Shown here piece by piece: positions 8,524 through 49,033 of a stretch of DNA of 64,000 nucleotides. How positions within the stretch are numbered: the stretch's first letter is position 1; every line of letters starts with the position of its first letter. This DNA is from Parcubacteria group bacterium (lineage in GTDB: Bacteria; Patescibacteriota; Minisyncoccia; Phycocordibacterales; Phycocordibacteraceae), in NCBI GenBank assembly GCA_028286615.1, contig JAQBRG010000003.1, forward strand, positions 147,406 to 211,405, read 5' to 3'. The position numbers were made by a program, and so were the translations under genes. Under the pieces are notes generated by a model, which saw only the letters and a program-made list of their open reading frames with translations, made no database searches and was not told the DNA's origin.

Positions 8524-10002
8524 ATGGCACAAAGCACCCGACCACCGATCGTGGCCGTTATGGGTCATATTGACCACGGCAAATCATCTCTTCTGGATTA
8601 CATCCGGAAGGCTAATGTCACAGCTGGCGAAGCTGGAGGCATAACCCAGCACGTTTCAGCGTACGAAGCTGAGCACGAACACGATGGTGTTACGCGCACC
8701 ATAACCTTCCTCGACACTCCAGGACACGAGGCCTTTCGTGCACTTCGCGCTCGCGGAGCAGCAGCGGCTGATGTTGCTATTCTCGTGCTCGCTTCAGACG
8801 AAGGGGTGAAGCCTCAGACGCTTGAAGCATACGAAGCAATAACCGAGTCTGGTATTCCTTTCGTTGTTGCGCTAACCAAGATGGACAAGAACGGTGCTGA
8901 TGTTGAGAAAGCAAAACTCTCAGCACTTGAGCACGGCATATACCTTGAAGGACTTGGAGGCTCCATTCCCTTTGCAGCAGTGTCTTCAAAGACGGGAGAA
9001 GGAGTTCCAGAGCTTCTCGATCTCGTGCTTATAACAGCAGACCTTGCAGAACTAACCGCAGACCCAGACGCTCCTGCAAGCGGATTCATTCTTGAATCTT
9101 CTCAGGATCCAAAACAGGGTCTTGCCGCCACGCTTATCCTTAAAGAAGGAACGCTTAACACCGGGGACTTTGTTATTGCCGGAAACGCCATTGCTCCCGT
9201 TCGCTTTATTGAAGACTTCAAAGGTGCCCGTCTAGCGAAAGCTATTGCGTCCCAGCCTATTCGTATTTCAGGCTTTTCTATGCAACCGCCTGCAGGCACT
9301 CCGTTCGCTTCTACAAGCAACAAGAAGGAAGCTGAAAAGCTCGCTGCTATGACAGAAACTGCTCCTGCTAAAGTTCGTGACGCTATTACCGAGAACGGAC
9401 ACGCCGTACTTCCTATCATTCTTAAAGCAGACGTAACCGGAAGCATTGAAGCCATCAAGCATGAGCTCGCAAAGATTGCTCATGACCGCGTAAAGGTACG
9501 CATTGTAATTGAAGGTATCGGAGCTGTTGCTGAGAACGATGTGAAGACCGCGCAGTCTGCAGGAGGCACTATTATCGCCTTCCATGTACCGACCGCTTCT
9601 TCTGCTCGCGATCTGGCAGAACGCACAGGCGTAACCATCGATACCTACGACATTATCTACGAACTCAAAGAGCGCGTGGAAGAACTCGTAAAGGAACGTG
9701 CACCTAAGATAACAACGGAAGAACTTCTTGGAGAGGCAAAGGTGCTTAAAGTGTTTAGCTCAGGCGGCAACAAGCAGACTCTTGGTGCTCGTTGGATCTC
9801 TGGCGCCCTAACCGTTGGCAATACCGTTAAGATAGACCGTCGTGGTATTCACGTAGGCAACGCAAAGCTAACCAATCTCCAGGTTGCTCGTTCAGATGTT
9901 AAAGAGATTCATATCGAAGGAGAGTTTGGTCTTCAGATTGAAGGCAAGTACGAAGCAGCTGCAGGAGACTCTCTTATCGCCTTCCGCATGACCGAAAGCT
10001 AA
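8524..10002 (+). CDS. infB: translation initiation factor IF-2 (short form, G domain to C-terminus)
   Basis: G1 motif GHIDHGKSSLLD, DTPGHEAF, TKMDK. Followed by rbfA as in the canonical operon. Only 492 aa, so it lacks N-terminal domains. Confidence 0.9.
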   Translation: MAQSTRPPIVAVMGHIDHGKSSLLDYIRKANVTAGEAGGITQHVSAYEAEHEHDGVTRTITFLDTPGHEAFRALRARGAAAADVAILVLASDEGVKPQTLEAYEAITESGIPFVVALTKMDKNGADVEKAKLSALEHGIYLEGLGGSIPFAAVSSKTGEGVPELLDLVLITADLAELTADPDAPASGFILESSQDPKQGLAATLILKEGTLNTGDFVIAGNAIAPVRFIEDFKGARLAKAIASQPIRISGFSMQPPAGTPFASTSNKKEAEKLAAMTETAPAKVRDAITENGHAVLPIILKADVTGSIEAIKHELAKIAHDRVKVRIVIEGIGAVAENDVKTAQSAGGTIIAFHVPTASSARDLAERTGVTIDTYDIIYELKERVEELVKERAPKITTEELLGEAKVLKVFSSGGNKQTLGARWISGALTVGNTVKIDRRGIHVGNAKLTNLQVARSDVKEIHIEGEFGLQIEGKYEAAAGDSLIAFRMTES

Positions 10003-10003
10003 T

Positions 10004-10342
10004 ATGAGCGACCGAGATAATCGTGCGCTCTCTATAATCCTCGAAAGCGCTGGTGCATACATTTCGCGCGAAGCAGGACGCAACACGCTAATTACGCCTA
10101 CTCGCGTGATGCTCTCGAGCGATCGCAAGGACGCAACTATTTTTGTAAGCGTGTTCCCTGATGGCGAGGAGAAGCAGGCGCTTTCCTTCCTCATTAGACA
10201 TAAGGATATGTTCCGCAACGAACTTAAGAAGACTCGTCTTATGCGACTTCCCTTCATACACTTCGAGATAGATTATGGCGAAAAGAACCGCCAGCATTTG
10301 GAAGAGATTTCCAAGGACTTAGATATAGAACCTGAGGTATAG
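10004..10342 (+). CDS. rbfA: ribosome-binding factor A
   Basis: 112 aa. Position immediately after infB. RbfA-like KH fold signature (NTLITPTRVMLSSDRKDATIFVS). Confidence 0.8.
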   Translation: MSDRDNRALSIILESAGAYISREAGRNTLITPTRVMLSSDRKDATIFVSVFPDGEEKQALSFLIRHKDMFRNELKKTRLMRLPFIHFEIDYGEKNRQHLEEISKDLDIEPEV

Positions 10343-10376
10343 CGCCCTAGGCTTAAGCACGATAATATCGGGGTAC

Positions 10377-10453
10377 GGCCTGGTGGCGAAGTAGATTAAC
10401 GCGATGGATTGCAAACCCATTATGCGCGGGTGCGATTCCCGCCCAGGCCTCCA
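10377..10453 (+). tRNA. tRNA-Cys (GCA)
   Basis: Hand-folded cloverleaf: acceptor GGCCTGG/CCAGGCC, anticodon loop TTGCAAA, T-arm GCGGG-TGCGATT-CCCGC, 3' CCA encoded. Irregular: 3-bp D stem, A:C at anticodon-stem base, G at position 55. Confidence 0.6.
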
Positions 10454-10498
10454 AATAACGTCTTGATAATTATTTGATCTCCATATGCTTATGCTGGC

Positions 10499-10996
10499 TT
10501 GATGCCAAAGTATAAGTATAAAAACGATCGATGGAGTGAAGAGAATCTGCGCAAAACAGTTGCGGAGTCACTTAGCATTCGTGAGTGTCTAGAAAAATTG
10601 GGTCTATTTCCTGGAGGTGGAAACTATAGTCAGTATCATTTTCATATCAATAAATACGACATAGATACTTCTCATTACACTGGGCAGGGTTGGCGTAAGA
10701 ATAGAAGAGTGCCTAAAGAACCTTTATACAGTACAGAAGAATTATTTATTGCCGGTGTCCCACGTTCTCGGAGGAATCTCAAGAGGAGATTATACGGAGA
10801 AGGTTTCAAACTACCTAAGTGCGAAGAGTGCGGATGGGCTGAAGTAAGCCCAGACGGCCGCTTGCCTTTGGAGCTTGATCACATAAATGGAGACAATATG
10901 GATAACAGGATAGAGAACCTTCGTATCCTGTGCCCAAACTGTCATAGTTTGAAACCTACCCACAGAGGCAGTAACATGGGCAGAAGGCCGGGGTGA
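10499..10996 (+). CDS. HNH endonuclease (homing-endonuclease-like), AT-rich
   Basis: C-terminal HNH motif CEECGW...LELDHINGDNMDNRIENLRILCPNCHS. AT-rich codon usage. Sits between two tRNA genes, and its stop codon lies inside the 5' acceptor stem of tRNA-Leu. Confidence 0.8.
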   Translation: MMPKYKYKNDRWSEENLRKTVAESLSIRECLEKLGLFPGGGNYSQYHFHINKYDIDTSHYTGQGWRKNRRVPKEPLYSTEELFIAGVPRSRRNLKRRLYGEGFKLPKCEECGWAEVSPDGRLPLELDHINGDNMDNRIENLRILCPNCHSLKPTHRGSNMGRRPG

Positions 10997-11074
10997 TGAA
11001 ATTGGTTAGACATTACAGACTTAAACTCTGTCGGTAGCAATACCATGCGGGTTCGAGTCCCGCCCCCGGCACCA
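10987..11074 (+). tRNA. tRNA-Leu (TAA), type II with long variable arm
   Basis: Acceptor GCCGGGG/CCCCGGC, anticodon stem ACAGA/TCTGT with loop CTTAAAC, variable arm ~15 nt, T-arm GCGGG-TTCGAGT-CCCGC, CCA encoded. The alr ATG overlaps the terminal A. Confidence 0.8.
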
Positions 11075-12231
11075 TGGAATTTTTAAATAAACTTCGTGCT
11101 TTCAAGAACAGGTTCTCGCACTACAGCCCACTAGTAGAGGTTGGAATTTCCCGTGCGAATCTTCTGCACAATCTCCACACCTACCAGGAGTCTTATCCAA
11201 ATCTTAAGTTCGCACCGGTACTTAAAAGCAACGCATACGGACATGACTTAGGTCTTGTGGCTCGCCTACTTGATAAAGAGGACATCGCCTTTTTTATGGT
11301 GGACTCGTTCTATGAGGCACGAAGATTGAGAGGCGCGGGAGTACGCTCTCGTATTCTTGTTATGGGCTACGTGCGTCCAGAAGATATAGTTCGCACTTCT
11401 GTTACAAACGTAGACTTTGCTATAACTGACCTAACACAACTCAAAGAGGTCTCCACTCTTCTTACGCACCCAACACGTATACACCTCAAGCTCGATACTG
11501 GGATGCATCGCCAGGGCATAACTCCGGAAGACCTGGCTGAGGCTATTAGCTTAATAAAGCAGAATTCAAACCTAGAGCTTGTTGGTATCTGTTCTCATTT
11601 TGCAGACGCTGATACAGACAATTCTCCTCATGCCCGTATGCAGGTTAAACGCTTCCAGGAAGCTTCTCTAGTGCTGTCTGAGGCATTTCCTCATATCGAG
11701 TACAAACACCTCGCAGCAACCAAGGGAGTGCGGTATGCAGAGGAAGCAGGAACGAACGTGGCCCGTCCCGGTATCGGTCTCTATGGTTTTGATACTTCCC
11801 CCTCGCATAGCACGCCTCTTAAGCCAGTTCTTGAGCTTCGAGCGATTATTGGGTCTGTACGCACAGTGTCTCCTGGAGAGACGGTTGGATACAACGCGAC
11901 ACACGAGGTTACAAAGGAGTCTCGCATAGCAACTATCCCAGCTGGATACTTTGAAGGCGTAGACCGAAGACTGTCTGGAAAAGGCGTGGTGCTAGTTCGA
12001 GGAGTTGTTTGTCCTATTGTTGGGCGGGTATCCATGAACATGATTAGTGTAGACGTTACGGGCGTTCCTGAGGCAGCTCCAGGAGACTCTGTAGTCCTCA
12101 TCAGCCGCAACCCAGAGGATTTGAATAGCATTCCTCACATTGCCGAAGCCGTAAGCACCCCAGAGTACCGGGAGAGCGAGTACGTCCTTCTCACTCACAT
12201 TCCCCAGCATCTGAGACGTGTGGCTGAATAA
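11074..12231 (+). CDS. alr: alanine racemase
   Basis: PLP-lysine motif VLKSNAYGHD. 385 aa, typical Alr length and C-terminal domain. Confidence 0.9.
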   Translation: MEFLNKLRAFKNRFSHYSPLVEVGISRANLLHNLHTYQESYPNLKFAPVLKSNAYGHDLGLVARLLDKEDIAFFMVDSFYEARRLRGAGVRSRILVMGYVRPEDIVRTSVTNVDFAITDLTQLKEVSTLLTHPTRIHLKLDTGMHRQGITPEDLAEAISLIKQNSNLELVGICSHFADADTDNSPHARMQVKRFQEASLVLSEAFPHIEYKHLAATKGVRYAEEAGTNVARPGIGLYGFDTSPSHSTPLKPVLELRAIIGSVRTVSPGETVGYNATHEVTKESRIATIPAGYFEGVDRRLSGKGVVLVRGVVCPIVGRVSMNMISVDVTGVPEAAPGDSVVLISRNPEDLNSIPHIAEAVSTPEYRESEYVLLTHIPQHLRRVAE

Positions 12232-23822: not shown

Positions 23823-24026
23823 TTTGGCTCCCCGGACTACCCTCTTCAGATTAGCTCTTTCACAAAGTCCACCACGGTGGGCTTTTGTTATATAGCCTAT
23901 TTACTTACTTTCTTAGCCTTTTAACCCATATACCTATTGACATTTGATATCTAAAGTGCTATCGTTCATTCCAGAGAAAGGCTCGCGACCCGCGACCCTC
24001 TACCTTGATATTTAGGAGAGACATGA

Positions 24027-25094
24027 GTGAATAAGTCCCAAACCGAAGCTCGCCCCAATCTTGCTGACGCTCTCCAAGGAGAGGCCGTGATGCCCCCGCT
24101 CTGCTTCCGCATGAACGGTACGGGCAAGCTGGAAGAAGGCATCGAGCTTGAGATGAGCCACCCGCTTCTGTCAGTCGGCAAGATGGCCCTGTTCTTCAAC
24201 AACGCGTCCTACGTGTTGCGGAATCTGAACAACGGCTGTCTCTATCAGCCGCAACCCGAGAAGAACACCGGCCTCGTTCGGCGCGCCGTGGTCGAATGGA
24301 AGGAACTGGAGGGCAAAAAGCCCTTTCCGCTCCTCACTCGTCCGCAAGGCCAGACCGAAAACCTGTTGGCCCACGTGTGCGCCAACATGGAACTGCCCGT
24401 CGGCGCTCAGCTGAAGGAACGGTTCTATGCCGGCATCATCACCACGGCCAGCGTCATCGGCACCGATAAGCTCGGTCGCGAAATGCTCCTTTCCTTCGGG
24501 AAGGGCGACATCGCGGACGTGTTCTACAAGGACGGCAGCGTGAAGCGCGTCGTTCGCGAGAACGATGCTCTGGTCGTCGACGTCCTCACCATCGAGGACC
24601 AAGCCGACCTGCGCATCGACCGCGTGCGGAACGAACTCACCGCCCTCGAAAAGATGCCAGTCGGTGACGAACGCGCCAAGATGGAGGACGGCCTCTACCA
24701 TGAGGTCATCACCATCCTGACCATCGGCGGCAAGCGCTCCAGCTACATCTTGAAGTCGGCCTTCGACTTCCTCGATGACGCCTGCGACGAGAGCAAGCTG
24801 CGCGCCGGCGTTCGCGCCCGTGCGCTCGATATGCTTCGGCAGATCGACCCGGCCTATGCGCTGCGCTTCGGCATCAGCACACAGGCTGGCGGCCCTTCCA
24901 AGCGTGGGTCCGGTGATTTCACCACTGCCTCCGTGCCGTCTTCGGACAGCATGGTCCGCAAGGGTCCACCGGCGGCTCGAAAGGCCAAACTGGCTGAACG
25001 CGCCAACCGCGACCGCGAAGCTCGTTCGCGCATGGCTGGCTCCTCGGGAGGCGGCAAGCAGGACAAGGGCGGTAACAAGAAGAAGGGCAAGTAA
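24027..25094 (+). CDS. hypothetical 355-aa protein with basic disordered C-terminal tail, GC-rich
   Basis: GTG start 6 nt after SD TAGGAGAG. Promoter-like TTGACA-17-TATCGT upstream. C-terminus KGPPAARKAKLAERANRDREARSRMAGSSGGGKQDKGGNKKKGK. No recognised domain. Confidence 0.65.
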   Translation: MNKSQTEARPNLADALQGEAVMPPLCFRMNGTGKLEEGIELEMSHPLLSVGKMALFFNNASYVLRNLNNGCLYQPQPEKNTGLVRRAVVEWKELEGKKPFPLLTRPQGQTENLLAHVCANMELPVGAQLKERFYAGIITTASVIGTDKLGREMLLSFGKGDIADVFYKDGSVKRVVRENDALVVDVLTIEDQADLRIDRVRNELTALEKMPVGDERAKMEDGLYHEVITILTIGGKRSSYILKSAFDFLDDACDESKLRAGVRARALDMLRQIDPAYALRFGISTQAGGPSKRGSGDFTTASVPSSDSMVRKGPPAARKAKLAERANRDREARSRMAGSSGGGKQDKGGNKKKGK

Positions 25095-25371
25095 TAGCCC
25101 CTCCTAAATACAATATCCACTGAACCTTATAAGGCCCTCGACGTATCGAGGGCCTTAATCTTTATCTACATATGCTACGTCCCCTACAGATCCTTGAGTC
25201 CAGGCATCAAGGGCGCTCAACTTCAACATTGGGCGCCTTTTCTTTTACTTAAAATTAGAACATATCCACAGGCTCTTGACAATTCATGAAGCTCGTGATA
25301 ATTTCCTCTCACCGACTGCTTGAGGCGCGAGCTTTAAGAAGGGACGGTACGAACCTCGAAGGAGACGACCC

Positions 25372-25656
25372 ATGAAAAGGCTCCATCTCATCGGCGCGAT
25401 AGCGGCGATGTCTTGTCTGACGACGGCGCGCGACGCCGCAATGGCCGGCAGCGACAGGGTGCATTCCAAGACGACGACCGACGACGGCACCGCCATGACC
25501 AGTATCAGCAACGGCATCGGCAACACCGGCGGCGCGGGCGGCCACATCACCGGCCATGACCCCTATGTGAACCTGACCTCCATCGCGCATCCGCTCGACG
25601 AACTCGGCCGCGGCGCCGACTCGGCCGATCCGGACATCACCGTCCTGCTGAACTAG
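25372..25656 (+). CDS. small secreted protein (signal peptide, Gly/Thr/Asp-rich mature part), GC-rich
   Basis: N-terminal signal MKRLHLIGAIAAMSCLTTA. Promoter-like TTGACA upstream. Followed by two strong hairpin terminators. Confidence 0.55.
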   Translation: MKRLHLIGAIAAMSCLTTARDAAMAGSDRVHSKTTTDDGTAMTSISNGIGNTGGAGGHITGHDPYVNLTSIAHPLDELGRGADSADPDITVLLN

Positions 25657-25668
25657 AACCTGGTCGCC

Positions 25669-25766
25669 GACGGCTCTGTCTGAGTCATCTCAGACAGAGC
25701 CAGGCAAAAGTCCTCAAGGCAAAGCCTCGAGGCACGGGCGCACGATTTCTTCGGATCTCGTGCGCC
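25669..25766 (+). terminator. two consecutive rho-independent terminators
   Basis: GGCTCTGTCTGAG-tcat-CTCAGACAGAGCC and GGGCGCACGA-loop-TCGTGCGCCC followed by a T-run. Confidence 0.7.
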
Positions 25767-25895
25767 CTTTCTCTTTACCTATATATGTGCTACAAATCCC
25801 CTATCGCGAGCGCGTATATAAGCCGCGAGAGGGCTATCCCTGGGAGCGCAAGCAAACAGTACCCTCCGCACACAACGCGCCGCACTTTTTAATTC

Positions 25896-27041
25896 ATGCC
25901 TGAAGAAACCGCTTCCCCGGAGGCGCTTGAGGAGCGTAAGCCCTCAGCTCCGGTAAGCACTATTACAATTGAACCCGGCCATCCAATGGCGGGGATGATT
26001 GACGCTATCGTCACTCCTCCTCGTGTTGGAGACTTGGTTGAAGGAACCATAATCGAGCTCGTCCGCGGACGTCTCTATGTAGACCTTCCTCCATTTGGTA
26101 CGGGTATTATCTACGGCCGCGAGTATCTCAACGCTGCAGACGTGCTTCGCAAGGCAAACCCTGGAGACACCATAACCGCAAAGGTTGTGGACGTTGCTGG
26201 TATCGAAGGATACATCGAGCTTTCCCTTAAGGAGGCTCGCCAGGCAGCTATCTGGGGCGAGGCTGAGCAGGCTATCGTTGCACAGACCATCTACAACATT
26301 CCTGTTGAAGAAGCCAACAAGGGCGGTCTTATCCTTTCATGGCAGGGCATCCAGGGATTCCTTCCTGCATCCCAGCTTTCAAAGGACCACTACCCACGTG
26401 TTCCTGAGGGAGACAAGGACAAGATCTTCTCTGAACTTCAGAAGCTTGCCGGCGTATCTCTCGCCGTTCGCATCATCACAGCCGATCCTAAGGAAGGAAA
26501 GCTTATCTTCTCTGAGCGTGTTGGAGACGAGGAGCAGGAGAAGGCAAACCTCGTAGACAAGTACCAGGTTGGCGATGTTGTTGAGGGAGAAGTTACAGGA
26601 GCTGTAGACTTCGGTGTCTTTGTGAAGCTTGAGACCGGACTTGAAGGACTCGTACACATCTCAGAGCTCGATTGGGGACTCGTTGAAGACCCACGCGTAC
26701 TCTTCAAGGTTGGCGACGCCGTTAAGGTTAAGGTTATTGAAGTTAAGGACGGAAAGATCTCTCTTTCTATCAAGGCACTCAAGGAGAACCCTTGGAAGAC
26801 CGCTTCAGACCGTTACAAGAAGGGTATGGATGTTACCGGCGTTATCATCAAGTACAACAAGCACGGTGCACTCGCTTCTATTGAAGAAGGCGTTGCCGGT
26901 CTCGTACACATCAGCGAGTTCGCTACTCCAGCAGAACTCCGCGAGACACTTGAACTTGGAAAGACGTATCCGTTCAGCATTACCCTCTTCGAACCAAAGG
27001 ACCAGCGCATGACGCTCTCCATGATTGAGAAGAAGAAATAA
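25896..27041 (+). CDS. rpsA: 30S ribosomal protein S1 (four S1-domain form)
   Basis: Repeated S1 domains (GxV.G.V....fGvFV.L..g.eGLvHiSE). 381 aa. Confidence 0.9.
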   Translation: MPEETASPEALEERKPSAPVSTITIEPGHPMAGMIDAIVTPPRVGDLVEGTIIELVRGRLYVDLPPFGTGIIYGREYLNAADVLRKANPGDTITAKVVDVAGIEGYIELSLKEARQAAIWGEAEQAIVAQTIYNIPVEEANKGGLILSWQGIQGFLPASQLSKDHYPRVPEGDKDKIFSELQKLAGVSLAVRIITADPKEGKLIFSERVGDEEQEKANLVDKYQVGDVVEGEVTGAVDFGVFVKLETGLEGLVHISELDWGLVEDPRVLFKVGDAVKVKVIEVKDGKISLSIKALKENPWKTASDRYKKGMDVTGVIIKYNKHGALASIEEGVAGLVHISEFATPAELRETLELGKTYPFSITLFEPKDQRMTLSMIEKKK

Positions 27042-27875: not shown

Positions 27876-28262
27876 TTAAAATAAAAGTCTTTTGATTCTT
27901 TCTTTCATTAAGGAGAAGTCTGGCCGATTCATCTTTCCTATGTAGCGGTTAAATCTCTTCGTGCTTATTAAGTGCACATGAGTTATTAAAGCCACCCATT
28001 TATCACCTTTATTTTCAAATAAAAAATAATAAGGGAGATCTTTAAAGGTTGAGGTTGTGGGTACGATGAGTGCCAGACCTTTTCCAAACGTTTTGAGCAC
28101 AATTATTGGCCTTTCGTATAAGGCTTTCTTACCGTCTTGCTCGTCGCCTATATTTAAGCCTACTGAGCACCACCATATATCTCGCTCATACACGATCAAC
28201 TCAGATTTTTCTTCTTCTATTCTTTTCTTCTGCTCATTCCACGCATCAAAATCCTTTTGCAT
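27876..28262 (-). CDS. MazF/PemK/Kid-family endoribonuclease toxin-like protein, AT-rich, no cognate antitoxin gene seen
   Basis: ERDIWWCSVGLNIGDEQDGKKALYERPIIVLK...LIVPTTS matches the MazF/PemK pattern (DIVW..., G.EQ.G.RP.VVL, V.P.TS). AT-rich. Confidence 0.7.
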   Translation of the reverse strand: MQKDFDAWNEQKKRIEEEKSELIVYERDIWWCSVGLNIGDEQDGKKALYERPIIVLKTFGKGLALIVPTTSTFKDLPYYFLFENKGDKWVALITHVHLISTKRFNRYIGKMNRPDFSLMKERIKRLLF

Positions 28263-28353
28263 TGCACTAACCTACAATATTGCGATATGAACAAGATGGT
28301 CGCGTAATAAGAAAAAGTTGACGCGCCGAAAGAGAGGAATACAATGAGCGGTA

Positions 28354-28893
28354 ATGCGAACCTTGCGAGAGATACTTTCATTCGTCATCCTCGCCGTCAT
28401 CATTGTTGTTCCTATCCGTTTGTTCATCGCTCAACCATTCGTTGTTGAAGGTGAAAGCATGCATCCTACGTTTGAAAGCGCTGACTATCTCATCGTTGAC
28501 GAACTCTCCTACCATCTCCACGCACCGCAACGCGGCGACGTTATTGTTTTTAGATATCCAAACGATCCGAAAGTGTTTTACATAAAGCGCATCATCGGTC
28601 TTCCTGGAGAAACCGTGAGTGTTAAGGATGGGAAGACAACTGTTAAGAAAGTTGATGGTACTGAAATCGCACTTGATGAGCCGTACGTAGTCTCTGAAGA
28701 CGCCACATACACCAACGACAGCGTTCTTGGTGCAGACCAGTACTTTGTTATGGGAGACAACCGTCCTCGCAGCTCAGATTCTCGTATCTGGGGACCACTC
28801 CCTAAGAAAGATATTGTAGGTCGTGCTTTCATACGCCTTCTTCCTGCAGGATCAATAGGTATTCTTCCCGGAAGAATCGAACTACCACAATGA
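28354..28893 (+). CDS. lepB: signal peptidase I
   Basis: S26 motifs GESMHPT (Ser box), RGDVIVF, GDNRPRSSDSR. Confidence 0.85.
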   Translation: MRTLREILSFVILAVIIVVPIRLFIAQPFVVEGESMHPTFESADYLIVDELSYHLHAPQRGDVIVFRYPNDPKVFYIKRIIGLPGETVSVKDGKTTVKKVDGTEIALDEPYVVSEDATYTNDSVLGADQYFVMGDNRPRSSDSRIWGPLPKKDIVGRAFIRLLPAGSIGILPGRIELPQ

Positions 28894-30056
28894 GTACAAC
28901 CGCCTCCGTACCTGCCGGCGTACGGCCAGACGAACTTTTGAAGCGTGCGCACGCTATCGGCAACTATTACGGCTTCACGCCGCTTTCAGTCCTTGCTGCA
29001 AAACAGAAAGGGCATGGTGCTCGCGCTCCCTATCCTGAGAACATGGGACTGGACGCGCTGGATCCTGTTGCCCGCGAAGTTGTTACACTTCTCAAGCAAG
29101 TGCGAGACATGGGTCTAGCTCCTTCTAAAGAGCGCCCTCTCTTCCTTTGGCACTCTAATGCTGCATACGGACGTCCTGCACCTAAGCAGATAATTATCCA
29201 GTTCCATATTCTTGGTGTAGAGCATGCTATAGCTGACGCGGTACTTATTCGTGCAGTTCGGGCACTAACCATGGACTTCGCAAAAGGCGACGTACGCTTA
29301 CGTGTGAACAGTATGGGAGACAAAGAGACTCGTGGACGTTTCGCACGTGAACTTGGCACCTTCTTCAGAAAGCATGGAGCAACTCTTCCTGCAGACTGCG
29401 TTTCTTGCGCACGCACCGACGTGTTCCAGGCAGCGGAGCTTCTTGTATCAAACAAGGATGCAGAACTCCCTTCTCCAACAGACCATCTTTCTGAAGCCAG
29501 CCGCAAACATTTTGAGAATGTTCTTGAATACCTTGAAGAGACCGAGACTCCGTACGAACTTTCTCCAGATCTCCTTTCTCGCGGTACCGCGTGGAGCGAA
29601 ACCTGCTTTGAGATAACAGGCAACAGCGGAGCGCTTCCATTTCATGCATGGGGTTCACGATATTCAGAACTTGCTCGTCCTTTCTGGAAGAGTCCAGGAA
29701 CGTCTATTGGTGCGGTTATTCGTATCCAGACTGAAGGACGCGAGACTATCGCTCCTATTAAAGAACGTACGAATCCTCGTTTCGTATTCGTACACATTGG
29801 AGACGAAGCAAAGCGCGAGAGTATGAAGATGGCAGACGATCTCCGTCGTGCACGTATTCCTATGACCCAAGCAATTGGCATCGCCTCTCTTACCGAACAG
29901 ATGCGTCTTGTTGATGAGACCGATCCTCCATACCTGCTTATTATGGGTCGCAAGGAAGCTCTAGACCGCTCCGTTATTCTTCGTGAGCGCGCTACTTACA
30001 CCGAGTCTGTTATTCCTCTTGATTCTCTTATAGATAGATTGAAGATGGTTGCGTAA
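28890..30056 (+). CDS. histidyl-tRNA synthetase-like protein with degenerate catalytic motifs (HisZ-like paralog or highly divergent HisRS)
   Basis: C-terminal class-IIa anticodon-binding domain (RFVFVHIGDEAKRESMKMADDLRRARIP...LLIMGRKEALDRSVILRER). Middle resembles HisRS (VNSMGD..R..F..L). Motif 2 region reads LFLWHSNAAYGRP instead of FRYERPQxGRxR. ATGA overlap with lepB. Confidence 0.6.
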   Translation: MSTTASVPAGVRPDELLKRAHAIGNYYGFTPLSVLAAKQKGHGARAPYPENMGLDALDPVAREVVTLLKQVRDMGLAPSKERPLFLWHSNAAYGRPAPKQIIIQFHILGVEHAIADAVLIRAVRALTMDFAKGDVRLRVNSMGDKETRGRFARELGTFFRKHGATLPADCVSCARTDVFQAAELLVSNKDAELPSPTDHLSEASRKHFENVLEYLEETETPYELSPDLLSRGTAWSETCFEITGNSGALPFHAWGSRYSELARPFWKSPGTSIGAVIRIQTEGRETIAPIKERTNPRFVFVHIGDEAKRESMKMADDLRRARIPMTQAIGIASLTEQMRLVDETDPPYLLIMGRKEALDRSVILRERATYTESVIPLDSLIDRLKMVA

Positions 30057-30143: not shown

Positions 30144-30446
30144 ATGTTCGCGATAAAGAGTATCGATCGTGATACCGGCCTTAACGGTTCGGTATATGTC
30201 TTCGCCTGGGCCGGGTTGCTGTTTTGGGGCATAGGAGCGGCGCAGTCACATCAAATTTTCGCCAACACCAGCGATTATTTGGCAGGTTATGGCTTTGCGG
30301 CTTTCCTTGCTGGCTTCGCCGGCATGACGTTCGCCGCTAACGTCTATGTGAATGACAAGCTCCTCTCGTTCTTCGGAGCCGTAGCGCTTGTCGGGCTATT
30401 TATGTGCGCTGCCGGCTTAGGCATGGAAGTCTATCGGAACTCTTAA
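30144..30446 (+). CDS. small membrane protein, hypothetical
   Basis: SD AAGGAG before ATG. Three hydrophobic helices. Terminator hairpin follows. Confidence 0.6.
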   Translation: MFAIKSIDRDTGLNGSVYVFAWAGLLFWGIGAAQSHQIFANTSDYLAGYGFAAFLAGFAGMTFAANVYVNDKLLSFFGAVALVGLFMCAAGLGMEVYRNS

Positions 30447-30585
30447 ATACCGCGCCCGAGATTCGTACAGGATCTCGGGCGTTCTCATATTAGTACCTCT
30501 GGATTGAAGCTCTTTTACAGAACTTGACAAAAGTGTAACTTATATGTATCTTATAGACAGGGTTAACTTGGATAAGGAGCCATCT

Positions 30586-30909
30586 ATGATGGTTGTTTCC
30601 GCAAAGAATCTGAACTCGATCGATTGGGTCGCCATTTTCTTCGGCGTCCTGCTGCTGGCTCTCGCCGGCCTCATCGCCTACGGCACGTTTCCATTGCCAG
30701 GTGTGACGGGAATCGATATGGACATCTTCCACGTGATGTTCGGACTCGGTCTCGCCGACATGGGGGTCGCGATCGGCATCCTGCTGCTGCTCTTGGGCAC
30801 CTGCCGCAAGCAAGCAGCCGAGATGCTCACCGTCCCGCTGCTTCTCATCGCGGCCGGAGGTATGCTGGTTGCAGCTCTCGCCCTCGGACACATCGCCGAG
30901 CTGATCTAA
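30586..30909 (+). CDS. small GC-rich membrane protein, hypothetical (start at second in-frame Met with SD AAGGAG)
   Basis: Promoter-like TTGACA upstream. Three TM helices. GC-rich codons. Terminator hairpin at about 30931-30968. Confidence 0.55.
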   Translation: MMVVSAKNLNSIDWVAIFFGVLLLALAGLIAYGTFPLPGVTGIDMDIFHVMFGLGLADMGVAIGILLLLLGTCRKQAAEMLTVPLLLIAAGGMLVAALALGHIAELI

Positions 30910-31016: not shown

Positions 31017-31277
31017 ATGAGTAACGCAACACGCGTAGAGGTTCGTCGCGGCAAGAACGAGAGTTCTGCTTCGCTTCTTCGACGTTTTTCCCGCCGCGGC
31101 CAGACCTTGGGCCTTGTTCGTGCGCTTCGCAAGATCCGCTACTACAGCCGCACCAAGTCTAAGAACGTGCAGCATGCCCGCGCCATGGTTAAGGGCGAGC
31201 GCATCGCTGAATACAACGAGCAGGTTAAGCTCGGCAAGATCGATCCAGCGGCTCGCAAGACCCGCGGCCGAAAGTAA
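31017..31277 (+). CDS. rpsU: 30S ribosomal protein S21 (with C-terminal extension)
   Basis: VEVRRGKNESSASLLRRFSRR..GLVRALRKIRYYSRTKSK aligns to the S21 consensus V.VR.NE...AL.RFKR. The ORF-track ORF 30624-31277 is an upstream over-extension of this gene. Confidence 0.7.
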   Translation: MSNATRVEVRRGKNESSASLLRRFSRRGQTLGLVRALRKIRYYSRTKSKNVQHARAMVKGERIAEYNEQVKLGKIDPAARKTRGRK

Positions 31278-39473: not shown

Positions 39474-40094
39474 CTAGTTTTGCAGCTCTTCTTTTGAAAT
39501 AGCTCCCTCTCGCAGTACGTTTAACCTTTCTCCCGTAAAGGAGACAACGGTTGAAGGGATTCCTCCCGAAAGCGGTCCTGCATCAATAACAAGATCAATG
39601 TGCGGAATATGAGAACCAAACTGTTCTAGAATCTCGCGCACCGTGCTTCCTGTTATGAGTCCGCTCCTGTTCGCAGACGTTGCTGTATAGGGTCTCTTAA
39701 ACGCTTTTGAAAGTGCAGCTGTAAAAGGGTGGTTTGGAACTCGTATGCCGAGCGTGCCATGGAGCATCAATTCTTCTGGTAGCTTGTCTATTCCGGGTAG
39801 CACCAATGTTAGAGGTCCTGGCAGATACCGGCTCGCGAGATGCTTTGCCTGTTCTGAAAGAATTGCGTAGCTTTCTATAGAAGCCACATCAGGCACTATT
39901 ACAGAGATTGGCTTCTTCTTTTCTCTTCCCTTTAGATCACGGAGTTTTTCAAGCGCACGAGTATTAAGTGCGTCTACAGCTAGTCCGTAAATAGTATCTG
40001 TTGGGTAGAGAACGATACCCGCTTTACTCAAAGTTTTCGCTGCGAGTTTCGCTGCTTTCTCTACTCCCACGTCTTCAAGATTGACGATCTTCAT
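39474..40094 (-). CDS. tsaC: L-threonylcarbamoyladenylate synthase (YrdC/Sua5 family)
   Basis: VLYPTDTIYGLAVDA signature. Start set at internal Met MKIVNLEDVG because the longer ORF overlaps tRNA-Val on the opposite strand. Confidence 0.8.
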   Translation of the reverse strand: MKIVNLEDVGVEKAAKLAAKTLSKAGIVLYPTDTIYGLAVDALNTRALEKLRDLKGREKKKPISVIVPDVASIESYAILSEQAKHLASRYLPGPLTLVLPGIDKLPEELMLHGTLGIRVPNHPFTAALSKAFKRPYTATSANRSGLITGSTVREILEQFGSHIPHIDLVIDAGPLSGGIPSTVVSFTGERLNVLREGAISKEELQN

Positions 40095-40139
40095 AGGTTG
40101 AATGGTAGCTCTAAACGCGCTATTCTGCGAGCATTCTTG

Positions 40140-40212
40140 AAGCGCGATTAGCTCAATTGGTAGAGCGTTTCTTTGACGTAGAAAAGGTAGCAAGTTCGAA
40201 TCTTGCATCGCG
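40140..40212 (+). tRNA. tRNA-Val (GAC)
   Basis: Acceptor GCGCGAT/ATCGCGC, D-arm GCTC-AATTGGTA-GAGC, anticodon stem TTTCT/AGAAA with loop TTGACGT, T-arm GCAAG-TTCGAAT-CTTGC. Confidence 0.85.
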
Positions 40213-40224
40213 CACACAGATTTT

Positions 40225-42285: not shown

Positions 42286-44472
42286 ATGGACGAGAAGTTC
42301 AAGAGCCCCTATAACCCGAAGGAGACCGAGGCACGCCTATATAAGGCGTGGGAGGAGAGCGGGTATTTCAACCCAGATAATCTGCCTGGAAAGAGAAAGA
42401 AGCCGTACACGATTATGATGCCGCCGCCAAACGCGACAGGTGTGCTTCACATGGGTCACGCGTTGATGCTTGTTATTCAAGACATCCTCATTCGCTACAA
42501 GCGTCTTCAGGGATTTGAGACTCTTTGGCTTCCAGGCACAGACCACGCAGCAATCGCAACCCAATCTAAAGTTGAGAAGGACATAAGCAAGAGCGAAGGT
42601 AAGAGTCGCCATGATCTTGGGCGAGAAGAACTGCTAAAGAGAATTGGTACCTATGTTGAAGAGAGTCGAGATACTATTCGAAACCAGATACGCGTACTGG
42701 GTTCTTCTTGCGATTGGTCTCGCGAAGCATTTACACTCGACGAAGAACGAAACAAAGCGGTGAACGAGTTGTTCAAGCGCATGTACCAGGCAGGACTTAT
42801 ATACCGCGGACATCGCATTGTTAATTGGGATCCAAAGGGGCAGACAACAATTTCAGACGACGAGATCGTGCACGAAGAACGCGCAGGAAAACTCTATACC
42901 TTTAAATACAGCAAGGACTTCCCTGTCTCCATTTCAAGCACTCGTCCCGAAACAAAAATTGGCGATGTTGCCGTTGCCGTACACCCAGACGACGCCAGGT
43001 ATCAAGAATACATCGGCAAGACATATGAGATGGAATTCTGTGGTGCACAGCTTTCAATACGAATTGTTCCTGACGAGGCCGTTGATCCCGATTTCGGTAC
43101 TGGTGCTCTTGGTGTTACGCCAGCACATAGCCAAATAGACTGGGAGATACGTGATCGTCACGCGCTGCCTGTTATTCAGGTTATAGATGAACGTGGTCGC
43201 ATGACCCGCGGAAACGAGTCAGTTAACGGAAAGAAAATATCAGAAGCACGTGAAGCAGTTGTTGCGTGGTTACGCGAAGAAGGACTGCTTGAGAAAGAAG
43301 AAGATATTATGCAGAACATCGCTACCGCAGAACGTACCGGCGGCACCATCGAGCCGCTTCCAAAGTTGCAGTGGTTTGTTGATGTGAACAAAGAATTCGC
43401 GCTCGATCATTCAGATATTCCTGGTATTAATGCAGGCGAACCCGTTACACTTAAGGAAATAATGAAGAAGGCCGTTGAAGGTAACGGCATACGTATTATT
43501 CCTGAGCACTTCAACAAAACGTACTTCCATTGGATAGATAACCTTAGAGACTGGTGTATTAGCCGACAGATCTGGTACGGACACCGTGTTCCTGTGTGGT
43601 ATCGAGGCGAGGAGATAACTATCGGAGAGGCTCCTGAGGGAGACTGGGCAAAGGATGGGTGGGTACAAGACGAAGACACGCTTGATACCTGGTTCTCCTC
43701 TGGCTCATGGACCTTCTCAACACTTGGCTGGCCCGAGTTCAAAAAGGATCTTGAACGTTTCCATCCAACCGACGTTCTTGAAACCGGGTACGACATTCTC
43801 TTCTTCTGGGTTGCCCGCATGATTCTCATGAGCGGATTTGCTTTGGGACAGGTTCCATTTAAGAACGTGTATCTGCACGGCATTGTTCGAGACGCGAAGG
43901 GACGCAAATTCTCTAAGTCTCTAGGAAACGGTATTGATCCCGTTGAGATGGTTGAGAAGTTTGGTACGGACGCTGTTCGTATGGCGCTTATTATTGGCAA
44001 CACGCCGGGTACTGACTCACGTCTTTCCGAAGACAAGATTAAGGGCTACAAGAATTTCGCTAACAAGATCTGGAATATCTCCCGATTCATTCTTGAGAAC
44101 ACTGAAGGCGCTGACGCTAAAGCGTCTCTTACGGAAGCGGATCAAGCCCTCCGCGAAGAATTTACCGCACTCGCTGCGGACATAACCTCAGACTTTGACG
44201 AGTTCCGTGTCTATCTCGCTGCAGAAAAGGCATACCATTACGCATGGCACCGTCTAGCAGATGAGGTCCTTGAAGAATCGAAGGCTATATTCTTAGGAGA
44301 AGACGAAGCAGCAAAAGCTTCACGCAAAGCGGTGCTTCTTTCACTCTTACATGACGTCCTCATTATTCTTCACCCGTTCATGCCGTTTGTTACTGAAGAA
44401 ATTTGGCAGAGCCTTCCAGACGCTAAAGACGAAGCCAAGTTCTTGATGGTTGCACGTTGGCCTGAGGCATAG
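42286..44472 (+). CDS. valS: valyl-tRNA synthetase (short form)
   Basis: PPPNATGVLHMGHAL (HIGH motif, ValRS-type PPPN context), KFSKSLGNGIDP (KMSKS). 728 aa, seemingly without the C-terminal coiled-coil. Confidence 0.9.
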   Translation: MDEKFKSPYNPKETEARLYKAWEESGYFNPDNLPGKRKKPYTIMMPPPNATGVLHMGHALMLVIQDILIRYKRLQGFETLWLPGTDHAAIATQSKVEKDISKSEGKSRHDLGREELLKRIGTYVEESRDTIRNQIRVLGSSCDWSREAFTLDEERNKAVNELFKRMYQAGLIYRGHRIVNWDPKGQTTISDDEIVHEERAGKLYTFKYSKDFPVSISSTRPETKIGDVAVAVHPDDARYQEYIGKTYEMEFCGAQLSIRIVPDEAVDPDFGTGALGVTPAHSQIDWEIRDRHALPVIQVIDERGRMTRGNESVNGKKISEAREAVVAWLREEGLLEKEEDIMQNIATAERTGGTIEPLPKLQWFVDVNKEFALDHSDIPGINAGEPVTLKEIMKKAVEGNGIRIIPEHFNKTYFHWIDNLRDWCISRQIWYGHRVPVWYRGEEITIGEAPEGDWAKDGWVQDEDTLDTWFSSGSWTFSTLGWPEFKKDLERFHPTDVLETGYDILFFWVARMILMSGFALGQVPFKNVYLHGIVRDAKGRKFSKSLGNGIDPVEMVEKFGTDAVRMALIIGNTPGTDSRLSEDKIKGYKNFANKIWNISRFILENTEGADAKASLTEADQALREEFTALAADITSDFDEFRVYLAAEKAYHYAWHRLADEVLEESKAIFLGEDEAAKASRKAVLLSLLHDVLIILHPFMPFVTEEIWQSLPDAKDEAKFLMVARWPEA

Positions 44473-47326: not shown

Positions 47327-49033
47327 CTAGAAACTTGGCGGAGGGGGTGGCGGTGGAAACAGCTCCCTCATCCGAGCTTGCCATTCTTCCTCAGATTCAT
47401 TTTCAAACCTTGCCGTTGAAGGCGGTGGGGGTGGGGGTTCGAAAGCTGGGACTTCAGGTGTCTGCTGAAGAGGAAAACGTTCTGCGATAATCTTCTCTCC
47501 AAGACTCCTGAATCTGTCTTTCCCTTCAGACTGATACTCTTCGACGCTATCAATCCTTCTACCCAGATCGTAAGAAGACTCCGTTCCTGAATTTATTAAG
47601 CCGTGTCTTTCCTTCCAATTTAGGAGCGCAGCAGTTGGATCGCCTCCTTTGTAATACTCAACTTTCGAGGGTCTCTGTTCTGGATACTTCGTGTAATACG
47701 ACTCCCAAAAGTCTTGAGAGGATACCGTGTTTTCTGCTTCTTTGAAGCGAGTTCCTGAACTTTCAATGATACTGTCAGCAACTTCTTGTTTTCTTCGCTT
47801 AACATCCTCAGGACCAGAGTCACGATAATATTTTCCGAAATCTTCAGCGTTACGAGAATTTCTTAAGACAGCTTGTTGGAGCTTAGGGTCTTGAACACCG
47901 AAGCGGTCTTTTAGTATCTGTGCAGCTGCTTCATGATTATCCTTTCGGTCGTCATATGTATCTAGCCACGCATAGAAATCATCTGAGTCTAGAAGAGTGT
48001 CTATATTATTCTTAACCTCTTCGTTCTCAATTGGCTGTTTATGCTCATCAAGTGCATAGCGCGATCCTGTCTCGCTATCTACTTGCGCTTCTGCAGGGAT
48101 AAATACAATACCAGCATTAATATTCATTCCTCGATCAAGTTCAGAGTCTGAAAGAATCCAGGTATCGTTATTCTTAGTGTCTCCCCCTTCAGATAACTTT
48201 CCAATGAAGCGATGCTCAGCTGCAATATGAGCCGAGGGAAAGGCAATAAATATCTCATTGCTTTTCTCGGAACCGTAATATTTGTCTGCTACTTCTTCAG
48301 TGGCAACATGGACTGCCGCACGATCTGCATAGCCATCAAATGCGCTCGATAGAGAGGTCTCAAGACGCTTTTCTGCATCATCCCTGGATTCTGCTTTATC
48401 AAGCTTCAGCGCCTTAGCGACGGCTTCTTCTTTTCCATGTTCCATTGCAGTTATGGCGAGAGACGATTTCAACTTTCCGTCTTGCATCATCTGCATGAAG
48501 CCGTTGGCATATTCTCCCTTCCCCTTAGTGTGCTCAAACATACCTGTATGATCTCTGATACCCTGTCGTGTTACATGGGTAACCATCGCGCTCGGAAAAC
48601 GCTTTAGCAAAAGTGCATAATCTTCCATGGAAAGAGATGCGAGATGTTCCTCGGTAAAGGCCTTTTGCATCTCTTCAGGGTTTCCAGTGGATTCAGCCCA
48701 ACGTTGTTTTTCTTTAGAGTAGAACTCGTCTAGAAGGCGCTTTGGTTCCGAGAACTGAGAAGGGATACTCGAGTCAGGAGCATCCGGAGAGAGTCTTTTC
48801 TTAACCTCAGTCCATTTATTTAAATCTTGTACCTTATCAAGACCTGTTTCATTAAGAGACGTTAGATCTCCCTCAAGCGCTTGATACGTATTAACAGTTT
48901 CTTGAGCAGATTCGCTAAGACTTGATGCGCTGCTCTCTGCGCGAGATTCACGTATCTTTGCAGCTACTTCATTTCTCTCCTCTGCGTGTTCTTGCTTGGA
49001 GAACTCTTTAATAAATTTGGGCAGCTCGGACAT
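47327..49033 (-). CDS. acidic 568-aa soluble protein with two C-terminal poly-proline tracts, hypothetical
   Basis: No TM or signal peptide. Highly charged. C-terminus AFEPPPPPPSTARFENESEEEWQARMRELFPPPPPPPSF. Confidence 0.6.
   Translation of the reverse strand: MSELPKFIKEFSKQEHAEERNEVAAKIRESRAESSASSLSESAQETVNTYQALEGDLTSLNETGLDKVQDLNKWTEVKKRLSPDAPDSSIPSQFSEPKRLLDEFYSKEKQRWAESTGNPEEMQKAFTEEHLASLSMEDYALLLKRFPSAMVTHVTRQGIRDHTGMFEHTKGKGEYANGFMQMMQDGKLKSSLAITAMEHGKEEAVAKALKLDKAESRDDAEKRLETSLSSAFDGYADRAAVHVATEEVADKYYGSEKSNEIFIAFPSAHIAAEHRFIGKLSEGGDTKNNDTWILSDSELDRGMNINAGIVFIPAEAQVDSETGSRYALDEHKQPIENEEVKNNIDTLLDSDDFYAWLDTYDDRKDNHEAAAQILKDRFGVQDPKLQQAVLRNSRNAEDFGKYYRDSGPEDVKRRKQEVADSIIESSGTRFKEAENTVSSQDFWESYYTKYPEQRPSKVEYYKGGDPTAALLNWKERHGLINSGTESSYDLGRRIDSVEEYQSEGKDRFRSLGEKIIAERFPLQQTPEVPAFEPPPPPPSTARFENESEEEWQARMRELFPPPPPPPSF

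What the first reader, a model, noticed from the sequence alone, without database searches (positions are those of the whole stretch)
28890..30056. HisRS-like protein with degenerate class II catalytic motifs, translationally coupled to lepB
The protein has a convincing class IIa anticodon-binding domain and HisRS-like insertion region. The motif 2 position reads LFLWHSNAAYGRP rather than FRYERPQxGRxR, and motif 1 is not evident.

It could be a HisZ-like regulatory paralog, which would be odd in an organism unlikely to carry hisG. It could instead be a catalytically dead pseudo-synthetase with a new role, or an unusually divergent bona fide HisRS. It overlaps lepB by ATGA.
Basis: partly seen in the sequence, partly recalled or inferred. 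Interest (0 to 1): 0.5.

Follow-up and report, generated by a model that had tools for sequence, protein, structure and literature searches.

The report
Catalytically dead histidyl-tRNA synthetase in Parcubacteria
In this tiny-genome bacterium, and across a large group of its relatives, the gene sitting where the histidine tRNA-charging enzyme normally sits has lost every residue needed for the chemistry. It has kept the residues that read the histidine tRNA anticodon, so it is most likely a conserved tRNA-binding "pseudo-enzyme" that databases mislabel as the real enzyme.

Summary

All ATP contacts (R113, E115, R121, F125, R311 in E. coli numbering) and nearly all histidine contacts are deleted or replaced. 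It scores 82.5 bits on TIGR00442 (cutoff 287).

It is not a stray paralogue. Canonical HisRS genes of other Paceibacteria (411 bits, every motif intact) occupy the same slot: pth-lepB-hisS-rpsU-ybeY-ftsA-ftsZ. The window gene is therefore the positional orthologue of a genuine hisS.

About 150 of the ~160 scanned genomic and metagenomic loci carry the dead form, which makes one long-branched clade. Two younger, independent decays also exist.

The gene evolves faster than FtsA/Z but as slowly as LepB among close relatives, so it is functional. The anticodon-reading residues (T. thermophilus E388, K397, Q404) are almost invariant, unlike in Gcn2.

A separate hisS is listed in 7 of 8 published Hanford Parcubacteria bins. 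In one bin I showed it is a different gene from the dead one, but I never saw its sequence.

Best reading: a non-catalytic, tRNA-His-binding pseudo-synthetase. HisZ-like and divergent-active-HisRS readings are not supported.

The parts
28318..28345 (+). promoter-like site (TTGACG-16-TACAAT) upstream of lepB; likely start of the lepB / hisS-like transcript
   Evidence: consensus scan, 10 of 12 matches; function not shown
28354..28893 (+). lepB (signal peptidase I), upstream partner; its stop overlaps the next start
   Evidence: Pfam Peptidase_S26, E 1.4e-47; lepB lies immediately upstream of the HisRS-type gene in 77/80 and 67/69 related loci
28890..30056 (+). HisRS-derived pseudo-synthetase gene (388 aa), positional orthologue of hisS
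28965..28982 (+). motif 1 remnant YYGFTP (residues 26-31), the dimer-interface element, conserved in canonical and degenerate forms
29136..29222 (+). former motif 2 hairpin (residues 83-111): R113 and E115 deleted; R121->P, R123->P, F125->Q, Q127->I, E131->H
   Evidence: predicted strands 84-89 and 100-108
29313..29561 (+). HisRS insertion domain (residues 142-224), well retained (INSMGDKETR ... LSEASRKHFENVLEYLEE)
29571..29663 (+). HisA/HisB region (residues 228-258): R259->S, Y263->A, Y264->W; HisB reduced to WGSRY (G285, R287, Y288 kept)
29703..29732 (+). motif 3 strand remnant (residues 272-281): G308->R, E310->Q, R311->T; no motif 3 helix follows in the model
29781..30053 (+). class IIa anticodon-binding domain (residues 298-388) with the anticodon-reading positions kept: I351, E356, R365, E372 (T. 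thermophilus F383, E388, K397, Q404)
   Evidence: Pfam PF03129

Best explanation
The gene encodes a non-catalytic descendant of histidyl-tRNA synthetase. It sits in the ancestral hisS slot directly behind lepB and keeps the HisRS fold, the motif 1 dimer-interface element, the insertion domain and the anticodon-binding domain. It has lost the ATP site, the histidine site, the G-1/C73-reading motif 2 loop and the motif 3 helix, so it cannot form histidyl-adenylate or charge tRNA (shown by sequence and model; inactivity itself is inferred from established class II aaRS enzymology). Because the side chains that read the GUG anticodon are preserved under strong selection, it most likely still binds tRNA-His specifically, probably as a dimer, without aminoacylating it (inferred). 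Its likely role is to hold, sense, escort or present tRNA-His (speculative). The working HisRS is encoded elsewhere in the genome (indirect evidence only). The change arose once at the base of a large Paceibacteria clade, and again more recently in at least two other lineages.
For: Catalytic loss: in an alignment of E. coli HisRS, 40 canonical Paceibacteria HisRS, 40 close family members and 130 other degenerate forms, the canonical set is 40/40 for R81, E83, T85, R113, R121, R123, Q127, E131, R259, Y263, Y264 and R311. In the window family R113 and E115 are deleted and the others replaced; only G285, R287, Y288 and G304 persist.
Family thresholds: TIGR00442 gives 82.5 bits for the window protein, 90-230 for other degenerate forms and 411 for canonical controls, against a cutoff of 286.75.
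Orthology: canonical hisS occupies the same gyrA..S1-pth-lepB-[hisS]-rpsU-ybeY-ftsA-ftsZ-trxB slot, as do degenerate forms of only 32-44% identity. lepB is adjacent in 77/80 and 67/69 loci.
Selection: degenerate pairs are 74% identical where FtsA/Z are 80-90% identical, similar to LepB at 70%. The close family has a mean column identity of 75%.
tRNA reading: T. thermophilus E388 (G34), K397 (G36) and Q404 (U35) correspond to E in 40/40 and 129/130, R or K in 40/40 and 130/130, and Q in 126/130 (E in the window family). Mean ABD column conservation in that set is only 0.57.
Second hisS: the Nelson & Stegen 2015 ortholog table lists a hisS away from lepB in 7 of 8 Hanford bins. Accession order proves that the degenerate P0076 is AB199_02180, not the listed hisS AB199_03725.
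Against: The second, working hisS was never seen as a sequence. It is not in the 64-kb window. It is not within 10 kb of the degenerate gene in about 160 loci. It was not identifiable by contig-length matching among 240 canonical Paceibacteria HisRS. All eight canonical genes whose context was read are themselves lepB-linked. In C7867-004 the listed hisS carries a high locus-tag number and may lie on a small binned scaffold. tRNA binding is inferred from conserved residues, not measured. The window family has Q->E at the U35-reading position, so its specificity may have shifted. The former active-site pocket is itself nearly invariant within the window family (W87, H88, H106, W235, W254, R257, Y258, R278), which could mean a new small-molecule ligand rather than, or in addition to, tRNA.
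Confidence: 0.68

Rival explanations
1. It is one half of a two-gene HisRS. The dead protein supplies anticodon recognition and the dimer scaffold, and it pairs as a heterodimer or in trans with a second, catalytic HisRS-type protein encoded elsewhere.
For: The motif 1 dimer-interface remnant and the anticodon-reading residues are both kept. A second HisRS-type gene exists in related bins. Class II synthetases are obligate dimers (established knowledge).
Against: No sequence of the second gene was obtained, so nothing shows that it lacks an anticodon domain or that the two interact. The genes are not linked. The motif 1 region is only 21-24% identical to canonical HisRS.
Confidence: 0.12
2. 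It is a very divergent but still active HisRS, the cell's only one, using substitute residues for catalysis.
For: Several annotation pipelines call it histidine--tRNA ligase. It sits in the hisS slot. It is under purifying selection. No second hisS was seen directly here.
Against: Both class-defining arginines (motif 2 R113, motif 3 R311), the HisRS-specific catalytic R259, the adenine-stacking F125 and the histidine ligands are gone, and structural elements are deleted. Across the degenerate clade these positions are not replaced by any common residue: the motif 2 region has column conservation of 0.31, which is incompatible with a shared catalytic site. A separate hisS is listed in 7 of 8 related bins.
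Confidence: 0.05
3. It is a HisZ-like allosteric regulatory subunit that binds histidine and controls ATP phosphoribosyltransferase or another enzyme.
Against: It has a full anticodon-binding domain, which HisZ lacks. It shows no hit to TIGR00443 or any PRK12292/12295/12421 HisZ model, even at E<=10. The histidine ligands E83, T85, Q127, E131 and Y264 are replaced. Its ancestry is the local hisS, not hisZ. Histidine biosynthesis is generally absent in these reduced genomes (my own knowledge, not tested here).
Confidence: 0.03
4. It is a decaying relic of hisS with no function, kept only because it lies inside an operon.
For: It is the fastest-evolving gene in its block between distant lineages: about 30% identity against 50-67% for its neighbours.
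Against: The reading frame is intact in about 150 independent loci from a deep clade. Divergence among close relatives matches that of LepB. The close family has 75% mean column identity with about 130 invariant positions. The AF2 model is very confident. These genomes are extremely reduced, so dead weight is unlikely to persist.
Confidence: 0.04

Closest known systems
Bacterial histidyl-tRNA synthetase (HisRS; TIGR00442, PF13393 + PF03129)
   Same: Same ancestry, same genomic slot, same overall fold and domain order (class II core, insertion domain, HGTP anticodon-binding domain). It keeps the anticodon-reading residues, the HisB R-Y pair and the motif 1 remnant.
   Different: All ATP contacts and nearly all histidine contacts are lost. 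The N-terminal RGxxD segment and the hairpin before the TXE helix are deleted. There is no motif 3 helix. It is 388 aa rather than about 435 aa, and it scores 82.5 against a 286.75 cutoff.
HisRS-like domain of the eukaryotic kinase Gcn2/GCN2
   Different: Gcn2's domain is fused to a kinase and has lost the anticodon-specific side chains, so it binds any tRNA (PMC11363354). Here the protein stands alone, is bacterial, and keeps E388/K397/Q404 equivalents, implying tRNA-His specificity. It has an independent origin from the local bacterial hisS.
HisZ, regulatory subunit of short-form ATP phosphoribosyltransferase
   Different: HisZ lacks the anticodon-binding domain and retains a histidine site for feedback regulation. 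This protein has the domain, has lost the histidine ligands and matches no HisZ model.
Mitochondrial DNA polymerase gamma accessory subunit (Pol gamma B)
   Same: A class IIa synthetase-derived dimeric pseudo-enzyme that keeps an anticodon-binding-like domain for nucleic-acid-related work.

Membership tests
HisRS (histidine--tRNA ligase, TIGR00442 equivalog) | Score at or above the curated whole-protein cutoff (286.75 bits) over the full model | tested here: not met
   82.5 bits, model positions 125-402 only. Canonical Paceibacteria controls score 411 bits over positions 1-405.
HisRS (histidine--tRNA ligase, TIGR00442 equivalog) | Class II motif 2 arginine (E. coli R113) and loop arginines R121/R123 for ATP and the G-1/C73 end of the tRNA | tested here: not met
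   R113 and E115 deleted; R121->P96; R123->P98. Canonical clade is 40/40 R.
HisRS (histidine--tRNA ligase, TIGR00442 equivalog) | Class II motif 3 (GxGxGxER strand plus helix) with arginine R311 | tested here: not met
   SIGAVIRIQT: G308->R, E310->Q, R311->T. No helix follows strand 272-280 in the model.
HisRS (histidine--tRNA ligase, TIGR00442 equivalog) | Histidine pocket: TXE (E83, T85), Q127, E131, HisA R259/Y264, HisB GGRYD | tested here: not met
   E83->R, T85->V, Q127->I, E131->H, R259->S, Y264->W. Only G285, R287 and Y288 of HisB are kept.
HisRS (histidine--tRNA ligase, TIGR00442 equivalog) | HGTP anticodon-binding domain with GUG-reading residues | tested here: met
   PF03129, E 2.8e-6. 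E356, R365 and I351 are kept; Q->E372.
HisRS (histidine--tRNA ligase, TIGR00442 equivalog) | Aminoacylation of tRNA-His | not testable with these tools
   Needs ATP-PPi exchange and charging assays.
HisZ (ATP-PRT regulatory subunit, TIGR00443 and PRK12292/12295/12421) | Match to a HisZ model at its cutoff | tested here: not met
   No HisZ model is listed, even at E<=10.
HisZ (ATP-PRT regulatory subunit, TIGR00443 and PRK12292/12295/12421) | Core only, with no anticodon-binding domain | tested here: not met
   A full anticodon-binding domain is present at residues 298-388.
HisZ (ATP-PRT regulatory subunit, TIGR00443 and PRK12292/12295/12421) | Partner hisG (short form) in the genome | not tested
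   Only 64 kb of the genome is visible, and the window ORFs were not all scanned for HisG.
Gcn2-type HisRS-like pseudo-enzyme | Catalytically null HisRS core plus anticodon-binding domain | tested here: met
Gcn2-type HisRS-like pseudo-enzyme | Fusion to a protein kinase and a ribosome-binding C-terminal domain; loss of anticodon-specific side chains | tested here: not met
   A stand-alone 388-aa protein with the anticodon-reading residues conserved. It works like this family but is not a member.

The most novel reading that the evidence does not exclude
Histidine charging in this large Paceibacteria clade may be done by an unconventional arrangement. One possibility is a two-gene HisRS in which this dead, anticodon-reading protein is the tRNA-recognition subunit for a separate catalytic protein. 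The other is that some complete genomes have no canonical HisRS at all and make His-tRNA by a route not yet described. My evidence excludes neither, because the second hisS was never seen as a sequence and no complete genome could be searched.
Probability: 0.12. Interest if true: 0.85.

Novelty: new variant of a known kind. Interest (0 to 1): 0.62.

Why it matters
Three reasons.

- **Biology.** It would be a free-standing bacterial counterpart of the Gcn2 HisRS-like pseudo-enzyme, but one that has kept tRNA-His-specific anticodon reading. It is retained across a deep clade of organisms with extremely small genomes, where every retained gene needs a reason. That makes a concrete question testable: what does a cell do with a protein that recognises one tRNA but cannot charge it?
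- **Evolution.** The same essential gene at the same locus lost its chemistry at least three times. This implies functional replacement of hisS by another gene in these lineages, and offers a natural series (canonical, intermediate, fully dead) for studying how enzymes become pseudo-enzymes.
- **Annotation.** The family is variously named histidine--tRNA ligase, HisZ, or a domain-containing protein. Pipelines that count it as hisS, or that count hisS (a bac120 marker by my recollection) as missing, will misjudge the aaRS complement and genome completeness of Patescibacteria.

Tried and rejected
- A second HisRS in the window: tblastn and phmmer with E. coli HisRS and with the protein itself found none.
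- Finding the second hisS by homology. The P0235 search and a consensus-canonical search returned only canonical Paceibacteria HisRS.
- Finding it by proximity: about 160 loci with up to 10-kb flanks held no second HisRS gene. These flanks are the same conserved block in every genome, so this carries little weight.
- Using typA as an anchor, since the published second hisS lies 2-5 genes from typA in three bins: no typA in any fetched locus.
- Extending past the window ends reached only short read-assembly contigs.
- tRNA-His genes near the locus: none in 60 loci or in the window.
- An AF2 model of a canonical Paceibacteria HisRS for element-by-element comparison failed (pLDDT 51) and was not used.
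- My first mapping of the T. thermophilus anticodon residues used mafft --keeplength, which shifted the numbering. That table is invalid and was replaced.
- An early attempt to annotate the whole window by concatenating ORFs was abandoned.
- Literature searches for a prior description found none. The library is not exhaustive.
The first reproduced the PDB alignments. The second matched the chain length and the four published residue numbers. BipA was not validated and gave no hits.

Full report
**Observation.** The ORF at 28890-30056 (+) encodes 388 aa. Its ATG overlaps the TGA of lepB (28354-28893; Peptidase_S26, E 1.4e-47) as ATGA. A promoter-like site lies just upstream of lepB, and there is no terminator-like site between the two genes. 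Pfam sees only the class IIa anticodon-binding domain at residues 302-385. NCBIfam's hisS equivalog model aligns residues 105-373 to model positions 125-402 at 82.5 bits, against a cutoff of 286.75, and no HisZ model appears even at E<=10. The nearest solved proteins by sequence are bacterial HisRS (1qe0, 6e-18). The window holds no other HisRS-like gene. The exact protein is on record from an NCBI 'Parcubacteria group bacterium' MAG contig of 278,296 bp.

**The catalytic site is gone.** I aligned four groups: E. coli HisRS, 40 canonical Paceibacteria HisRS, 40 members of the window's close family and 130 other degenerate relatives.
- The canonical group is 40/40 for R81, E83, T85, Y107, R113, R121, R123, Q127, E131, R259, Y263, Y264 and R311.
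- In the window protein R113 and E115 fall in a deletion.
- The replacements are R121->P96, R123->P98, F125->Q100, Q127->I102, E131->H106, E83->R62, T85->V64, R259->S230, Y263->A234, Y264->W235, G308->R278, E310->Q280 and R311->T281.
- Only G285, R287, Y288 (a reduced HisB) and G304 remain.
- The N-terminal RGxxD segment and the hairpin preceding the TXE helix are deleted.
- As controls, canonical Paceibacteria proteins score 411 bits on TIGR00442, an intermediate form (P0235) 230, and other degenerate forms 90-146.

Motif 1 is not absent. A YYGF-P remnant (residues 26-31) is shared by all groups.

**Family and orthology.** The close family (66-74% identity, more than 120 clusters) comes from Parcubacteria/Patescibacteria MAGs. 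An exhaustive search of cluster representatives found 1,615 relatives. None of the best 150 matched my patterns for the TXE motif, motif 2, HisA or motif 3, and the aligned motif regions showed the same losses. Gene order around the gene is gyrA .. S1 - pth - lepB - [gene] - rpsU-like - ybeY - ftsA - ftsZ - trxB. This holds in the window, in a 68%-identical relative (L001), and in relatives of only 30-44% identity.

The key finding is that fully canonical HisRS genes of other Paceibacteria (LRPEYT, FRHENPQKGRLRQF, RGLDYY, GGGRYD, GxGxGMER) occupy exactly the same slot. They also share long stretches with the window protein outside the active site, such as INSMGDKETR, YYGF, HFxEVLxYLEE and GQKEAxxxxVIVR.

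Scans of the genome and metagenome collections returned 160 loci. lepB is immediately upstream in 77/80 and 67/69 assessable cases. Five loci carry a canonical gene, one an intermediate, and the rest degenerate genes. The window gene is therefore the positional orthologue of hisS, not a dispersed paralogue.

**Evolutionary behaviour.**
- So constraint was relaxed relative to a working HisRS but remains comparable to an essential neighbour. Together with intact frames in about 150 loci, this rules out a pseudogene.
- A neighbour-joining tree, made without support values and open to long-branch effects, places all short degenerate forms in one long-branched clade. Two full-length intermediates (P0235/L005 and L075) branch separately near the canonical clade. 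This suggests one old loss and at least two younger ones.
- By region, identity to the canonical consensus is lowest in the motif 2 hairpin (0.11-0.22) and the HisA/HisB/motif 3 strands (0.18-0.27). It is highest in the anticodon-binding domain (0.37-0.48) and the insertion domain (0.35).

**Is there another HisRS?** I could not search a whole genome. The ortholog table of Nelson & Stegen 2015 (PMC4508563) lists one hisS per Parcubacteria genome.
- In RAAC4 and five ACD genomes the listed gene is next to lepB.
- In seven of eight Hanford bins it is far from lepB, while two unlisted genes lie between lepB and ybeY.
- For C7867-004 I showed from sequential GenBank accessions and the name 'AB199_02175' of its neighbour that the degenerate protein P0076 is AB199_02180. 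The listed hisS is AB199_03725. That bin therefore has two HisRS-type genes.
- In three other bins the listed hisS lies 2-5 genes from typA.

I never obtained the sequence of this second gene, and every attempt to reach it failed. That the working enzyme lies elsewhere is thus supported indirectly, and by the general requirement for His-tRNA.

**Likely function.** The Gcn2 structural study states that T. thermophilus HisRS reads the GUG anticodon with E388 (G34), F383 and Q404 (U35), and K397 (G36), and that Gcn2 has lost these side chains. Mapping these positions gave the following (the probe sequence was validated):

| T. thermophilus residue | Canonical Paceibacteria | Window family | Other degenerate forms |
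|---|---|---|---|
| E388 (G34) | E, 40/40 | E356, 40/40 | E, 129/130 |
| K397 (G36) | R, 40/40 | R365, 40/40 | R or K, 130/130 |
| Q404 (U35) | Q, 40/40 | E372, 40/40 | Q, 126/130 |
| F383 (U35) | I, 40/40 | I351, 39/40 | I, 122/130 |

Average column conservation of the domain in the degenerate set is only 0.57, so these positions are under specific selection. Twenty-one anticodon-domain positions are shared by all three groups.

I therefore commit to this reading: a non-catalytic, probably dimeric protein that still recognises the anticodon arm of tRNA-His but can neither bind ATP or histidine nor accept the G-1/C73 end in a motif 2 loop. What it does with the bound tRNA (sensing, sequestering, escorting, or presenting it to the real synthetase) is not shown. 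Within the window's own family the former pocket is nearly invariant and rich in Trp, His and Arg (W87, H88, H106, W235, W254, R257, Y258, R278). A lineage-specific ligand is possible.

**Comparison with known systems.**
- It works most like the Gcn2 HisRS-like pseudo-enzyme. It differs in being free-standing, bacterial, independently derived and apparently tRNA-His-specific.
- It is not HisZ: it has the anticodon domain, lacks the histidine ligands and hits no HisZ model.
- It fails every catalytic membership criterion of HisRS while meeting the fold, domain and synteny criteria.

I found no description of it in the searchable literature. I rate it a new variant of a known kind (synthetase-derived pseudo-enzymes).

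**Limits.** Catalytic inactivity and tRNA binding are inferences from sequence and a predicted structure. The second hisS is documented only through a published table plus accession arithmetic. The tree lacks support values.

Noticed in passing
window 27876-28262 (-): A PemK/MazF-like toxin ORF (Pfam E 2.5e-7) is wedged between pth and lepB. Relatives have nothing or an alpha/beta-hydrolase gene at that spot (L001, L003, L004). Only about 90 bp separate it from lepB, so no cognate antitoxin gene fits upstream of it.
   Followed up: no
window 30144-30446 and 30544-30909 (+): Two small hydrophobic ORFs (100 and 121 aa, probable membrane proteins, no Pfam match) lie between the HisRS-like gene and the S21-like gene. 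They recur on the read-assembly contig L096 but not in more distant relatives.
   Followed up: partly
window 31017-31277 (+): An 86-aa basic protein gets no Pfam hit at 1e-3, but the cluster of its L001 orthologue is named 30S ribosomal protein S21. It looks like a divergent rpsU that standard models miss.
   Followed up: partly
L005 (P0235) 10001-11305; L075 1574-2932: These are full-length (434-453 aa) lepB-linked HisRS genes that keep some motifs (LRPD, GGRYNN, FLER) but have lost motif 2 and HisA. They appear to be younger, independent decays of the same gene. P0235 scores 230 bits on TIGR00442.
   Followed up: partly
L026 and L038 (contig CAXRCZ010000007.1, 126,716 bp): The same lepB / HisRS-like block appears twice on one contig in opposite orientation with identical statistics. 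This is probably an assembly artefact (hairpin or chimeric contig).
   Followed up: no
window 24001-26000: GC content rises to 0.589 against about 0.48-0.52 around it. The ORF at 24027-25094 (355 aa) has no Pfam match.
   Followed up: no
window 42286-44472 (+): A class I synthetase that looks like ValRS from its N-terminal sequence (Pfam tRNA-synt_1 plus Anticodon_1) is only 728 aa, shorter than a typical bacterial ValRS.
   Followed up: no
window 47327-49033 (-): A 567-aa ORF with a proline-rich C-terminus and no Pfam match.
   Followed up: no
family-wide: Public names for this one orthologous family are inconsistent: 'histidine--tRNA ligase', 'ATP phosphoribosyltransferase regulatory subunit', 'His/Gly/Thr/Pro-type tRNA ligase C-terminal domain-containing protein' and 'hypothetical protein'.
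   Followed up: yes
window 39474-40217 (-) and 40142-40215 (+): The longest ORF for the Sua5/TsaC-like gene overlaps a predicted tRNA-Val on the opposite strand, so its true start is probably further downstream.
   Followed up: no
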